From the NCBI GenBank assembly GCA_965205685.1, contig OZ242174.1, positions 285,231 to 349,230 on the forward strand: 64,000 bases of DNA. Reading direction: 5' to 3'. The notes beneath the pieces were generated by a model that searched no databases, had not been told where the DNA came from, and was given only the letters and a program-made list of their open reading frames with translations. A program made the position numbers and the translations under genes. Below are positions 54,447 to 57,393 of this stretch, piece after piece; within the stretch, counting starts at the first letter, position 1; each line of letters begins with the position of its first letter. Source of the stretch: Gammaproteobacteria bacterium (GTDB lineage: Bacteria; Pseudomonadota; Gammaproteobacteria; UBA4575).

Positions 54447-55676
54447 TTACACAGAAACTAAAGTTGAATGATCATTCCAGTTTTCCGCGATGATCAGTTC
54501 AACGTTTCTCAACTCAACAACGTCCTTCCAGTCTCTCATAGATTCTCTCGGAGGGAAGATAACAACATTCTGACCATTTGGCACAATAGCACTTGGATAT
54601 ACTATTCCATCGATCCTCCGGTCAGATTCTTCTTGCAAGAATACCTGTGCAAAGAATTCAGAGACGACCTGAGAAGGAACAAAATCAACGTGCTCCCTGC
54701 TGTCCTTGGGTATTGGTTTACTGATCGCATGAACAAATTTTTTCAAAAACAAGATGGCTTCTCTGATGTCGCGCTTCTCCGTGTCGAAGATGGAAGGCTC
54801 TTCTTCTGGGAGCGAGGCCAAGTCGAGTATCCGCAAATTGTCTTTCGGTGTAAACGTGGCAATAGCTCCTTGGCAGGGCGGGCAACTAAGTACTTCGCCT
54901 ATTGCTGTTCGTTGCTCTTGAGCAAGATACAAATAACCAATGCCGGCAGGATTCATACGGCCTGCGCTGGCCTTGCTCGATGGTGGCGGGCCTAATTGCT
55001 CAAAAGAGTTGAGAACTTCCCCTTCCCTCAACTTTCGCACCCGGTATAGGGGAGTCTCAGCTTCTAGAGTTCTATACAGCTCAAGTTCCTGTGCTATAGA
55101 CCCGATTAGCCTAAGCAAATCATCAGTTGAAGAAATTTCGTCATTTCCGAAATCCTCGAGCACTGTGCCGGCAAAGAAATATCTAGTGCTTGTCTTTACT
55201 ATCCGTTCAAAATTTTCCCAACTCCACCTCCAGATCGTGCTGTCATGTTCGCTTAACCAGAATCCATTTGCGCATTGCACCCATCCCCAGTTATGAAATG
55301 AACGCGCAACATCTTCGAATAAGTCGCCGTGACAATGAAGAGGTAGAGACTCAAGTGCATCATGTGTATATGTCAACTCCTGAATCCAATCACCACTGTC
55401 TCGCGGGAGCATTGCCGCACCTGGCTCTGCAAAATTTGTAAAAAATGCGCCGCCGATCGGATGCATAATCGCCTCAACAGGTGCAGCAATAGACTCGACT
55501 GATTGGTGCCCACAATAGTCACACGCCTGCGCTTCTACATTGCTTTGAATGACATCTTTCAGGAATTCGTCATCTACACAGTTAGCACAAACATGCTTGT
55601 CAGGAGCATCCCATCCACGCTCTTGTGACTCTAATAAAAGTTCCTTTGCCCAACCCATCTGTGCCTCACATATCAA
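54447..55676 (-). CDS. RES-domain (NAD+ glycohydrolase-type) protein with Cys-rich HEPN/RES N-terminal domain
   Basis: RES motif region R-x-GRMNPAGIGYLYLAQEQRTAIGE. N-terminal CxxC…CxxC (HVCANCVDD…CDYCGH). 4-nt overlap with the upstream RloB-like gene. Confidence 0.7.
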   Translation of the reverse strand: MICEAQMGWAKELLLESQERGWDAPDKHVCANCVDDEFLKDVIQSNVEAQACDYCGHQSVESIAAPVEAIMHPIGGAFFTNFAEPGAAMLPRDSGDWIQELTYTHDALESLPLHCHGDLFEDVARSFHNWGWVQCANGFWLSEHDSTIWRWSWENFERIVKTSTRYFFAGTVLEDFGNDEISSTDDLLRLIGSIAQELELYRTLEAETPLYRVRKLREGEVLNSFEQLGPPPSSKASAGRMNPAGIGYLYLAQEQRTAIGEVLSCPPCQGAIATFTPKDNLRILDLASLPEEEPSIFDTEKRDIREAILFLKKFVHAISKPIPKDSREHVDFVPSQVVSEFFAQVFLQEESDRRIDGIVYPSAIVPNGQNVVIFPPRESMRDWKDVVELRNVELIIAENWNDHSTLVSV

Positions 55677-56185
55677 TCATCAAATGACAAACAACCCAGC
55701 AACGCTTCCAGTTCCAGAACATTGTGCCTGCGAATCTCCAGAACATCCTTAGGAAAATTTGTCTTGTAGTTGTCTTGAGTCGTCAGTGTGGTTGGAAGCA
55801 AATTGTTCACCCGTGACTTGCACTCTGCACATGTGCTTGGCACCGGCTCATCGAGAATTTTTAGCAACAGTCCTTCGATGCAGGGTGTCGAGCCTATGAT
55901 CCGAATCTTTTTTGATTGGGCACGCTTCTGTATCGCTGCCGATATTTCCAGGTCGGTATCCAGCAAAGCTATAACCCGGTTGTATGCCGCATTCCTGCAT
56001 TGTTTGATGGCGTAGTCCACTACATGAGCCGGCCCTTTACCGTGCGCATTGCGAATCTTGGCACTCACTCCGCACCCGCGACCGACATAGAGAGATTTGA
56101 CGTGACAGAGAAATGCGCACTCGGTTTTACCCTCCCCTACCAGCAGGACGGTATGACGGGCAGCGCGCCATTCGCGTGAAGGCAT
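55673..56185 (-). CDS. RloB-like protein (partner of abortive-infection AAA ATPases)
   Basis: 170 aa with a VLLVGEGKTE start typical of the RloB/DUF4276-like TOPRIM-type family. 11 nt after the ATPase stop. Confidence 0.6.
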   Translation of the reverse strand: MPSREWRAARHTVLLVGEGKTECAFLCHVKSLYVGRGCGVSAKIRNAHGKGPAHVVDYAIKQCRNAAYNRVIALLDTDLEISAAIQKRAQSKKIRIIGSTPCIEGLLLKILDEPVPSTCAECKSRVNNLLPTTLTTQDNYKTNFPKDVLEIRRHNVLELEALLGCLSFDD

Positions 56186-56196
56186 CCGTGATCCCT

Positions 56197-57393
56197 TTAA
56201 AAATCAGGAACAGCGCCGTATGCACCGGCACGGTACTTGGCATACAGATTGTCATCCCGGCGAATACCCTTCATGTCACCGAGTCGCCAGGCCTCACTGT
56301 TGCCGTCTGGATCTTTTTCAATGAGCAGGACTTGGTCCTTTTGCAATTCATTGAGAATCTCGTGTGCATGGCATGTAAATATGATTTGAGCATTCTGCGG
56401 GTTGTGATCGCGATCGATGAAGAGATCAAGCAGCGCAATGATCATGTCTGGGTGCAGGTCCGCCTCAATCTCGTCGATGATGACGATGCCACCATGCTCT
56501 AGGGCTGGCAGGATCCTCTCCAGCAGAACAAATGCCGCCTGCGTGCCACTGGATTCATATTCGAGTGGTAGCTTATGCTCCTGTCCAGCCTTGCGGTGAA
56601 CACCAAAGGGAACATTGACCTCCTCACTCTTGCCGGACTGCCTTTCCACATACTTACGCGATTCAATGATGACTTCGGCAATACCCAAATCCAGACGGCT
56701 CAGGATAGCGGACATTTGCGCACGTAACGCCGGGCGGTCATGGAAGAAATCGGCTACATCGAACACGTCCCGCACATCAAAATGATCTCGACCGCTGTCG
56801 TACACGTTGGAGTAGAATTGCGAAAAATAATTGACCAGTCCCTGTGCGCACGGCACGTTGTATTGCGCCGAAGTCGAGATTAATGATGCGTTCGGGCGGA
56901 CTTTTTCGGCCTCACTGGCCGCAAAACCAAATTTCTGCTGGCGGATGTTGTAGGAAGAATCCGACTCGGACCAGTCCCGACGAAAAATAAAGCTGAAGAA
57001 CTTGCTGGTCTTGAGATACAAGGATTCATGCAGGACCCGCTTCGGGGTGACGGTCAGGTAATAGCGGTAAAACTGTCCCTGGTCCTCGAATTCAATCTCG
57101 AACTCGCTATGGGCCGAGTCGGAGAAAAAATGAGGATGTACCGGGATATCCTCCTCCGGTTTTATGGAAGTGAACGAATCTGCGATGAACCAACTCAGGA
57201 AAGACAGCGGCTTCAGCACGTTGGTCTTGCCGGAAGCATTGGGACCGATGACTGCAAGGACTTTCGACAGACGTGCACCTCCCGGACTCAGGAACACCAG
57301 GTCCGAGTTCGGCACCTGGCGATTGAGTACGAAAGAGACCTCCGTTTTCTCGGCAAACGAGAAAAAGTTCTTGAATCGGTATTTATGCAGCAT
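56197..57393 (-). CDS. AAA-family ATPase (AbiL/RloA-like, AAA_15/21)
   Basis: Walker A GPNASGKTN. Walker B/D-loop IVIIDEIEADLHP. Typical split ABC-type ATPase of two-gene defence modules. Confidence 0.75.
   Translation of the reverse strand: MLHKYRFKNFFSFAEKTEVSFVLNRQVPNSDLVFLSPGGARLSKVLAVIGPNASGKTNVLKPLSFLSWFIADSFTSIKPEEDIPVHPHFFSDSAHSEFEIEFEDQGQFYRYYLTVTPKRVLHESLYLKTSKFFSFIFRRDWSESDSSYNIRQQKFGFAASEAEKVRPNASLISTSAQYNVPCAQGLVNYFSQFYSNVYDSGRDHFDVRDVFDVADFFHDRPALRAQMSAILSRLDLGIAEVIIESRKYVERQSGKSEEVNVPFGVHRKAGQEHKLPLEYESSGTQAAFVLLERILPALEHGGIVIIDEIEADLHPDMIIALLDLFIDRDHNPQNAQIIFTCHAHEILNELQKDQVLLIEKDPDGNSEAWRLGDMKGIRRDDNLYAKYRAGAYGAVPDF

What the first reader, a model, noticed from the sequence alone, without database searches (positions are those of the whole stretch)
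54447..57393. Tightly packed operon: AbiL-like AAA ATPase, RloB-like protein and a RES-domain NADase with Zn-ribbon N-terminal domain
Gaps and overlaps are 11 nt and 4 nt, so the three genes are almost certainly co-transcribed. AAA-ATPase/RloB pairs are known two-gene abortive-infection modules. Here an RES-domain (NAD+-depleting) protein carrying a Cys-rich HEPN/RES-type N-terminal domain is appended as a putative effector, without its usual Xre/ParS antitoxin. This three-gene architecture may represent an uncharacterised sensor-effector defence system.
Basis: partly seen in the sequence, partly recalled or inferred. Interest (0 to 1): 0.75.

Follow-up and report, generated by a model that had tools for sequence, protein, structure and literature searches.

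The report
AbiL plus aRES defence genes, co-transcribed
The three tightly packed genes are real, but they are most likely two anti-phage systems that are already known, the two-gene AbiL ATPase/nuclease pair and the single-gene NAD+-destroying aRES protein, joined into one small mobile operon rather than forming a new three-part system.

Summary
On the minus strand lie an AbiLi-type ABC ATPase (57393-56197), an RloB/AbiLii Toprim-like protein (56185-55673) and a 403-aa Zn-ribbon + HEPN_RES_NTD1 + RES protein (55658-54447). The gaps are 11 nt and 14 nt; the "4-nt overlap" assumes a TTG start that homologues do not support. There is one promoter-like site upstream and no Xre antitoxin.

The third protein fits the sequence criteria of aRES, a standalone anti-phage NAD+ phosphorylase family described in a January 2026 preprint. 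AbiL is a known two-gene abortive-infection system.

- None of 80 genome loci with aRES homologues (29-49% identity) carries an AbiL pair.
- The closest AbiL pairs (ATPase 85% and 82% identical), one in the same ICE hotspot, lack aRES.
- aRES genes are often packed tightly behind unrelated genes.

However, the same cassette, with the same boundaries and spacers, recurs in three other loci, two of them with unrelated flanks. It is therefore a conserved mobile unit within one small clade.

Best reading (about 0.75): two autonomous systems transcribed from one promoter. Functional coupling is not excluded (about 0.17). Interest is low to moderate.

The parts
57444..57471 (-). Promoter-like site (TTGATT-16-CATAAT) in the AT-rich spacer upstream of abiLi. 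It lies inside the block of DNA homology shared by all the cassettes.
   Evidence: consensus scan, 9/12 matches; the number of such sites in the region is no higher than in shuffles, so this is only suggestive. One search shows that cassette homology starts at about 57477.
56197..57393 (-). abiLi: ABC/OLD-type AAA_21 ATPase, 398 aa
   Evidence: PADLOC AbiLi 2e-78. Walker A, Walker B, signature and H-loop residues are invariant. The nearest solved relatives by sequence are PtuA and the OLD family.
55673..56185 (-). abiLii / rloB: Toprim-like protein, 170 aa, and the presumed nuclease effector of AbiL
   Evidence: Pfam RloB above cut-off; PADLOC AbiLii 2.3e-16. E18 and D76xD78 are visible in the sequence. 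The gap to abiLi is 11 nt.
54447..55658 (-). aRES homologue, 403 aa: Zn-ribbon + HEPN_RES_NTD1 + RES (NAD+ phosphorylase-type) domain
   Evidence: AF2 model with pLDDT 82, whose best PDB fold matches are the RES toxins 6gw6_A and 8gug_A. The family definition comes from the aRES preprint. The spacer after rloB is 14 nt, with a GAGG ribosome-binding site.
54424..57477 (-). The whole three-gene cassette as a unit of DNA homology. L001 and L084 share the same boundaries with unrelated flanks; L082 also shares the cassette but has a similar downstream flank as well.
   Evidence: L001 matches window 54424-57477 (79.5%), L084 matches 54447-57476 (74%) and L082 matches 54384-57504 (80.5%). The two-gene module alone matches 55673-57473 in L098 and 55655-57485 in L105.

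Best explanation
Two autonomous, already described anti-phage systems have been compacted into one transcription unit. The unit sits in the cargo/defence island of a PFGI-1-type integrative conjugative element.

Module 1 is AbiL. By analogy with PARIS, Gabija and OLD systems, the AbiLi ABC-type ATPase would hold or gate the Toprim-like AbiLii/RloB nuclease until a phage cue releases it, causing abortive infection. This step is inferred.

Module 2 is an aRES protein. Its RES domain, on infection, would phosphorolyse NAD+ to nicotinamide and ADPR-1''-phosphate and arrest growth. This activity has been shown for E. coli, Klebsiella and Enterobacter aRES and is inferred here from homology. The Zn-ribbon/NTD1 part is presumably its own sensor or regulator (inferred).

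In this small clade the aRES gene sits 14 nt behind abiLii and is most likely expressed from the abiLi promoter. The cassette therefore moves and is expressed as one unit, and provides two mechanistically different layers of defence: a nuclease and NAD+ depletion. Neither module needs the other.
For: Identity of the parts:
- The aRES definition (RES + PF18870, 300-600 aa, standalone, defence by NAD+ depletion) comes.
- The window protein meets both Pfam criteria and the length criterion.
- Its 44-45% identical full-length relatives come from Solimonas soli DSM 21787 and Azonexus hydrophilus DSM 23864. These strains are in the authors' aRES table.
- Enterobacterial plasmid homologues align over about 90% of the length.
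- AbiL is described as a complete AAA + TOPRIM_OLD two-gene system in PMC10440598.

Each module occurs without the other:
- 0 of 80 genome loci with aRES homologues carry AbiLi/RloB. L085 (59%) and L088 (52%) are also solo.
- The closest AbiL pairs lack aRES. L098 (ATPase 85%) shares homology that ends exactly at the rloB stop. L105 (82%) is in the same S24/ParB ICE hotspot.
- About 74 ATPase clusters are at least 70% identical to the query, against only 7 aRES clusters at 67% or more.

The modules evolve separately:
- ATPase and RloB identities are star-like, with RES-linked and RES-less pairs interleaved.
- Window versus L082 jumps from about 77% to about 90% nucleotide identity near the rloB/aRES border.

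Tight packing is typical of aRES genes:
- 20 of 71 genome loci have an unrelated same-strand ORF ending within 60 nt upstream. These include integrases, HsdR, a type IIG methylase, an SMC-like ATPase and a Ymh-HEPN protein.

The cassette aRES has not been remodelled:
- It keeps the full architecture and all invariant residues of solo members, with no clade-specific indels.
Against: - The triple recurs with the same outer boundaries and the same 11/14-nt spacers in L001 and L084, whose flanks are unrelated, and in L082. It has stayed intact over divergence down to 67% (aRES) and 78% (ATPase) identity.
- No separate promoter for aRES is evident, so its expression depends on the AbiL operon.
- The two close aRES relatives without an AbiL pair, L087 and L083, are N-terminally truncated or chimeric remnants, not intact solo genes. 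Within the clade, every intact aRES seen is therefore AbiL-linked.
- NTD1 domains have been reported as occasionally fused to ABC ATPases (PMC3710099). An SMC-like ATPase lies upstream of aRES in 8 of 80 loci, within 45 nt in five of them, despite deep divergence.
- No experiment has been done on this cassette.
Confidence: 0.75

Rival explanations
1. Integrated three-component system. The AbiLi/AbiLii complex and aRES communicate. Either AbiLi senses the phage cue and licenses aRES as a second effector, or aRES acts as a back-up 'guard' that fires when a phage inhibits AbiL. The second option is analogous to PrrC being unmasked when EcoprrI is inhibited (recalled from general knowledge, not tested here).
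For: - The cassette is conserved as a mobile unit: it recurs in three other loci with fixed 11/14-nt spacing, two of them with unrelated flanks.
- All intact aRES genes of this clade are AbiL-linked, and the unlinked ones are truncated.
- No internal promoter was found.
- HEPN/RES-NTD1 is occasionally fused to ABC ATPases (PMC3710099).
- Another ATPase family is tightly linked to aRES in 8 of 80 loci despite 28-47% ATPase and 35-40% aRES identity between them.
Against: - aRES works alone experimentally.
- 0 of 80 more distant homologues are AbiL-linked.
- The closest AbiL pairs lack aRES, including one in the same ICE hotspot.
- There is a recombination breakpoint between the modules.
- The cassette aRES shows no structural adaptation.
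- aRES also sits tightly behind integrases and restriction-modification genes, where coupling is implausible.
Confidence: 0.17
2. Toxin-antitoxin or addiction module. RES is a constitutive NAD+-degrading toxin that is neutralised by the upstream ATPase and/or RloB, which replace the missing Xre antitoxin. The module would stabilise the ICE rather than defend against phage.
For: - RES domains are the toxins of RES-Xre/MbcTA/ParST systems, and the best fold matches are the RES toxins 6gw6_A and 8gug_A.
- AAA ATPases have been reported as antitoxin-like neutralisers in the NetFlax network (PMC10440598).
- The cassette lies in ICE cargo next to other TA-like modules: AbiE, HipA-like and Fic.
Against: - Hundreds of NTD1-RES homologues exist with no conserved partner at all.
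- Solo expression of aRES in E. coli is tolerated until infection.
- In the NetFlax cases the AAA protein neutralises the Toprim partner, not a third gene.
Confidence: 0.04
3. Decaying or accidental juxtaposition in which one module is non-functional.
For: - Related loci do show decay. The ATPase is frameshifted in L001. RloB is truncated in L099-L106. L087 carries a deletion remnant and L083 a chimera.
Against: - In the window all three ORFs are full length, with all catalytic and invariant residues intact.
- The same is true in L082 and L084.
Confidence: 0.04

Closest known systems
aRES (antiphage RES-domain proteins; Osterman et al., bioRxiv 10.64898/2026.01.28.702374, Jan 2026)
   Same: - Same two-domain make-up (PF18870 N-terminal domain + RES) and a length of 403 aa within the 300-600 aa range.
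- Located in a defence island, with no Xre antitoxin.
- Invariant Arg/Glu/Ser-type residues.
- Relatives from strains listed in the authors' aRES table.

   Different: - Only about 26-27% identical to the Enterobacterial plasmid homologues found here. Identity to the three tested proteins themselves was not measured.
[quoted passage not shown] Here the gene sits 14 nt behind abiLii with no evident promoter of its own.
- Activity has not been tested for this member.
AbiL (AbiLi/AbiLii of Lactococcus lactis; the RloA/RloB-type pairs found in type I R-M loci)
   Same: - A co-oriented AAA_21 ATPase plus an RloB/Toprim-like protein, with the best PADLOC matches to AbiLi and AbiLii.
- The two-gene module exists on its own in the closest relatives.
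   Different: - A third gene is co-transcribed downstream in this clade.
- The RloB here is short (170 aa, matching positions 2-147 of the 195-position model).
- No phenotype data are available.
PARIS (AriA ABC ATPase + AriB Toprim nuclease), also Gabija and OLD-family nucleases
   Same: - The same ATPase + Toprim logic. The ATPase also matches AriA models (4e-38) and, by sequence, PtuA and OLD structures.
- This is the likely working model: the ATPase senses and the Toprim effector is released (PMC11464382 abstract).
   Different: - The AbiLi model scores far better than AriA.
- The partner is RloB, not the DUF4435-type AriB.
- This is a 'works like' comparison, not a claim of membership.
RES-Xre / MbcTA / ParST type II toxin-antitoxin systems
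   Same: - The RES catalytic fold (fold hits 6gw6_A and 8gug_A).
- NAD+ phosphorylase chemistry is shared with aRES.
   Different: - No Xre_MbcA_ParS_C antitoxin is present.
- The protein is about twice as long and has a Zn-ribbon + NTD1 N-terminal half.
- A canonical RES-Xre pair, as seen in L098 (230 aa + 133 aa), looks quite different.

Membership tests
aRES | RES domain (Pfam RES, PF08808; printed as 'PF00808' in the preprint's methods) | tested here: met
   RES 8.4e-16, 58.8 bits against a cut-off of 23.2, residues 210-378; the top PDB fold hits are RES toxins.
aRES | PF18870 (HEPN_RES_NTD1) domain in the same protein | tested here: met
   5.2e-16, 59.6 bits against a cut-off of 27.4, residues 46-169. 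The authors used hhsearch at >80% probability; here hmmscan above the gathering score was used.
aRES | Length 300-600 aa | tested here: met
   403 aa from the conserved ATG.
aRES | Conserved RES active-site residues | tested here: inconclusive
   R206, R208, R234, E255 and S356 are invariant in 24 relatives. Their one-to-one correspondence with the residues mutated in E. coli UC5 aRES was not checked, because those residue numbers were not available in the text.
aRES | Standalone gene, not operonically linked to other proteins (a descriptive property, not part of the authors' detection rule) | tested here: not met
   The gene lies 14 nt downstream of abiLii on the same strand, with no promoter-like site between them. 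The more distant family members examined lack an AbiL pair, although many sit behind other genes.
aRES | Phage defence through NAD+ -> nicotinamide + ADPR-1''-phosphate | not testable with these tools
   Requires plaque assays and LC-MS. Shown only for three Enterobacterial homologues.
AbiL | AbiLi-type AAA_21/ABC ATPase with intact NTPase motifs | tested here: met
   PADLOC AbiLi 2e-78. AAA_21 1.5e-34; the motif residues are invariant.
AbiL | AbiLii/RloB Toprim-like partner encoded immediately downstream | tested here: met
   RloB 38.8 bits (above 31.5) and AbiLii 2.3e-16. The gap is 11 nt. E18 and D76xD78 are present in the sequence.
AbiL | Abortive-infection phenotype that needs both genes | not testable with these tools
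   Known for L. lactis AbiL (cited in PMC10440598).
RES-Xre type II TA | Adjacent Xre/COG5642 (Xre_MbcA_ParS_C) antitoxin gene | tested here: not met
   None is present. The neighbours are RloB upstream and a 93-aa ORF with no family hit downstream. The HTH_3 protein at 53774-54073 is on the opposite strand and lacks that domain.
PARIS | AriA ATPase plus AriB (DUF4435 Toprim) pair | tested here: not met
   The ATPase matches AriA models only secondarily (4e-38 against 2e-78 for AbiLi). The partner matches AbiLii/RloB, not AriB.

The most novel reading that the evidence does not exclude
In this clade, AbiL and aRES have become a true three-component system. The AbiLi/AbiLii complex would control aRES, or be guarded by it. 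This would be the first example of an aRES protein wired to an upstream ATP-dependent sensor. It would also be a natural handle on the still unknown trigger of aRES.
Probability: 0.17. Interest if true: 0.6.

Novelty: new member of a known kind. Interest (0 to 1): 0.3.

Why it matters
The finding shows how defence genes are packaged. A single-gene NAD+-depleting system (aRES) has been captured directly behind a two-gene nuclease system (AbiL). The resulting 3-kb cassette, with one apparent promoter, has then spread between ICE cargo regions and restriction-modification islands.

For annotation, the third gene should be called aRES, not a novel effector of AbiL.

For experiment, the cassette is a compact test case for whether stacked systems merely add up or cooperate. 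The cue that activates aRES is not identified in the aRES preprint, so a clade in which aRES expression is tied to an ATPase/nuclease sensor pair is a reasonable place to look for cross-talk. If they do not cooperate, the finding is ordinary defence-island stacking.

Tried and rejected
- Look-up of the window's own aRES protein (P0001) in the contig index: not on record. The cluster look-up gave no names, so the source organism stays unidentified.
- Metagenome scan with the ATPase alignment: the patterns were dominated by the Walker A motif.
- Viral-contig scans, one with the abiLii/aRES junction pattern and one with the aRES protein: nothing found.
- blastn of the cassette against plasmids: no match.
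- Sequence search of the PDB with the aRES profile and with RloB: only chance-level hits.
- PADLOC v2.0.0 (2023) has no model matching the RES protein. This absence reflects the library's date, not novelty.
- A conserved partner for the aRES family as a whole: rejected. Clustering the neighbours of 81 loci gave no family present in more than 11 loci.
- L083 and L087 as evidence that close aRES relatives are happily solo: rejected. L087 lacks the first 62 codons. L083 has the AbiEi N-terminus fused on, in a contig with 3x coverage.
- Deciding from the junction whether RES-less pairs lost aRES or never had it: L105 and L098 keep only a few matching bases beyond the rloB stop, which is too little to decide.
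Full report
**1. What is in the sequence**

Between 57393 and 54447, on the minus strand, lie three co-oriented ORFs.

- **Gene 1 (398 aa)** is an ABC/OLD-type ATPase.
  - It matches Pfam AAA_21 (1.5e-34), and its best PADLOC model is AbiLi (2e-78). AriA, HEC-01A, PtuA and GajA models score far behind.
  - Walker A, Q-loop, signature, Walker B and H-loop residues are invariant in 33 relatives.
- **Gene 2 (170 aa)** starts 11 nt after gene 1.
  - It matches Pfam RloB above its cut-off and PADLOC AbiLii (2.3e-16).
  - Its sequence shows a Toprim-type Glu (GEGKTE) and DxD (LDTDLE).
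- **Gene 3** matches HEPN_RES_NTD1 (5.2e-16) and RES (8.4e-16).
  - In an alignment of 24 relatives, four Cys (CxxC...CxYC) are invariant, as are R206/R208 (YRVR), R234 (GRMNP), E255 and S356 (YPS).
  - An AlphaFold2 model (pLDDT 82) finds the RES toxins of P. putida (6gw6_A) and V. parahaemolyticus (8gug_A) as best PDB folds, followed by ADP-ribosyltransferase toxins.

Every homologue begins with MG..K, which corresponds to the ATG at 55658, preceded by GAGG. Genes 2 and 3 are therefore separated by 14 nt rather than overlapping by 4 nt.

A sigma-70-like site lies upstream of gene 1 (57471-57444). No promoter-like or terminator-like site on that strand separates the genes (this is a weak scan).

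**2. Setting**

The cassette lies in a low-GC stretch (44-53% GC from about 48 to 57.5 kb, against about 60-70% on the far side). One side is the backbone of a PFGI-1-type integrative conjugative element: an S24 repressor, ICE_PFGI_1_parB (TIGR03764, 1.2e-79) and further ICE genes seen in the related loci. The other side is a run of defence or TA-like cargo: a 93-aa ORF, an HTH protein, a SoFic/PDC-S04-like Fic protein, AbiEi/AbiEii, a GNAT, and a HipA_2-like kinase with a partner.

**3. The third gene is a known kind: aRES**

A full-text search for PF18870 found a January 2026 preprint (Osterman et al., bioRxiv 10.64898/2026.01.28.702374).

- It defines aRES as proteins of 300-600 aa with the RES and PF18870 domains.
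- It shows that three Enterobacterial members protect E. coli from phages by converting NAD+ to nicotinamide and ADPR-1''-phosphate, with growth arrest.

The window protein meets the two domain criteria and the length criterion. Its 44-45% identical full-length relatives come from Solimonas soli DSM 21787 and Azonexus hydrophilus DSM 23864. More distant relatives come from Halomonas zhanjiangensis DSM 21076 and Sphingomonas sp. Leaf17. All four strains appear in the authors' aRES table.

A tblastn search of plasmids finds 307 records. Many are from Escherichia, Klebsiella, Citrobacter and Enterobacter; the Enterobacter and E. coli hits listed align at about 27% identity over about 90% of the length. 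The listed records are annotated "RES family NAD+ phosphorylase" or "HEPN-associated N-terminal domain-containing protein". PADLOC 2023 has no model for it, which reflects the library's date.

The N-terminal domain was first named by Anantharaman et al. 2013 (PMC3710099). They noted fusions to HEPN, to RES (some with an extra Zn ribbon) and "occasionally to an ABC ATPase".

**4. The first two genes are a known kind: AbiL**

AbiLi+AbiLii is a bicistronic abortive-infection system. Its toxic effector is the TOPRIM_OLD-like AbiLii/RloB (Deng et al. 1999, as cited in PMC10440598). Its logic is that of PARIS, OLD and Gabija (abstracts).

**5. Is the triple a system? Comparative evidence**

(a) *From the aRES side.*
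- The family is large: 326 hits, all with the same two domains.
- In 80 genome loci with 29-49% identical homologues, none has an AbiLi or RloB relative nearby.
- Solo genes are also seen at 59% (L085) and 52% (L088) identity.
- Neighbour clustering gives no conserved partner. The neighbours are type IIG/DrmMI-like methylases, type I R-M subunits, an SMC/LmuB-like ATPase, Ymh-HEPN, HNH and integrases.
- In 20 of 71 loci an unrelated same-strand ORF ends within 60 nt of the aRES start. Tight packing behind another gene is therefore a habit of this family, not evidence of partnership.

(b) *From the AbiL side.*
- The ATPase has about 74 clusters at 70% identity or more, but the aRES has only 7 at 67% or more.
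- The closest pair, L098 (ATPase 85%), shares DNA homology with window 55673-57473, ending exactly at the rloB stop. It is followed by a convergent gene. Around it are the same island genes (GNAT, Fic, AbiEi, HipA_2 pair) in another order.
- L105 (82%) sits in the same ICE hotspot (DUF2857, ParB, S24) and has the pair without aRES.
- L099-L106 (79%) have the ATPase with a truncated RloB and no aRES.

(c) *In favour of a unit.*
- The triple recurs in L082 (aRES 85-86%), L001 (76-77%, ATPase frameshifted) and L084 (67-68%, beside a type I R-M system and GmrSD).
- The outer boundaries of homology are the same (about 57477 to 54424/54447), and so are the 11/14-nt spacers.
- P0004 and P0123 share a contig length of 3839 nt, which probably marks a fifth cassette (inference).
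- The two close aRES relatives without AbiL are not intact. L087 has the same ICE flanks as the window but has lost 55472-57571, that is, the promoter, both AbiL genes and 62 aRES codons. L083 is an AbiEi-aRES chimera in a contig with 3x coverage.

(d) *Module independence inside the clade.*
- ATPase and RloB identities are star-like, with RES-linked and RES-less pairs interleaved.
- Window versus L082 jumps from about 77% nucleotide identity over the AbiL genes to about 90% over aRES and the downstream flank. This marks a recombination breakpoint near the rloB/aRES border.
- The cassette aRES shows no clade-specific indels or lost residues relative to solo members.

**6. Verdict**

The most economical reading is two autonomous, known defence systems fused into one small operon that travels as a unit within one narrow clade (confidence about 0.75).

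- Shown here: domain identities, spacing, recurrence of the cassette, and the independent occurrence of both modules.
- Inferred: co-transcription, AbiL's PARIS-like mechanism, and aRES chemistry in this member.

Functional coupling (about 0.17) is kept alive by four observations: the cassette's conservation, the absence of a promoter specific to aRES, the reported NTD1-ABC ATPase fusions, and a second, deeply conserved ATPase-aRES pairing in other genomes. A TA-type reading and a decay reading are each unlikely (about 0.04).

**7. Novelty and score**

Both parts are new, divergent members of known families. The operonic linkage departs from the published description of aRES, but it is confined to a handful of sequences and is explicable as defence-island compaction. 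Novelty is "new member of a known kind" and interest is 0.3. If coupling were shown, it would be a new variant and would deserve about 0.6.

Noticed in passing
window 57572-57663; L087 7253-7345 and 11063-11170; L105 4174-4265; L098 215-289; L083 6186-6275: The last ~90 nt of the S24 repressor gene, up to and including its stop codon, recur as direct repeats between cargo modules in related ICE islands. The window has only the gene's own copy. This looks like serial site-specific insertion of defence cargo into the 3' end of the S24 gene, each insertion restoring the gene end.
   Followed up: partly
L041 902-11697 (also L040, L013, L007, L072, L015, L010, L014; the methylase also in L012): In 8 of 80 genome loci an aRES homologue lies downstream of a ~665-aa SMC/LmuB-like ATPase with no Pfam hit; the gap is under 45 nt in five of them. 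In L041 the operon reads DrmMI/type IIG-like methylase (1667 aa), ATPase, aRES, Schlafen-AlbA_2/HATPase_c_4 protein (561 aa), HNH (254 aa). The pairing persists at 28-47% ATPase and 35-40% aRES identity, so this may be a multi-gene system that incorporates aRES.
   Followed up: partly
L083 3697-4932: A chimeric ORF: the first ~30 residues match the N-terminus of the window's AbiEi antitoxin (51945-51136) and are fused to aRES from residue ~14. The contig has only 3x coverage, so this may be an assembly artefact or a real rearrangement.
   Followed up: partly
window 48106-49763 (+): A HipA_2-like kinase (270 aa) overlaps a 282-aa ORF that has no Pfam, NCBIfam or PADLOC hit. The pair is conserved (83% nt) next to the AbiL pair in L098. 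It may be an uncharacterised two-gene kinase module in the defence island.
   Followed up: no
window 54080-54361 (-) and 53774-54073 (+), 52069-53562 (-): A Lys-rich 93-aa ORF with no family hit lies just downstream of aRES. It is conserved in L082 (86.5% nt) and partly in L105. Beyond it lie an HTH_3 protein and a SoFic/PDC-S04-like Fic protein. The window and L082 share this flank at 86-90% identity, higher than their AbiL genes (~77%).
   Followed up: partly
L099-L104 and L106, about 6209-6410: Close AbiLi relatives (79%) are followed by only the first 55-67 codons of RloB. These look like decaying AbiL systems sitting next to chromosomal housekeeping genes.
   Followed up: partly
L098 8679-9769: A canonical RES-Xre toxin-antitoxin pair (RES 230 aa + Xre_MbcA_ParS_C 133 aa) sits about 2 kb from the RES-less AbiL pair in the island most closely related by ATPase. 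It is a useful contrast with the 403-aa aRES architecture.
   Followed up: no
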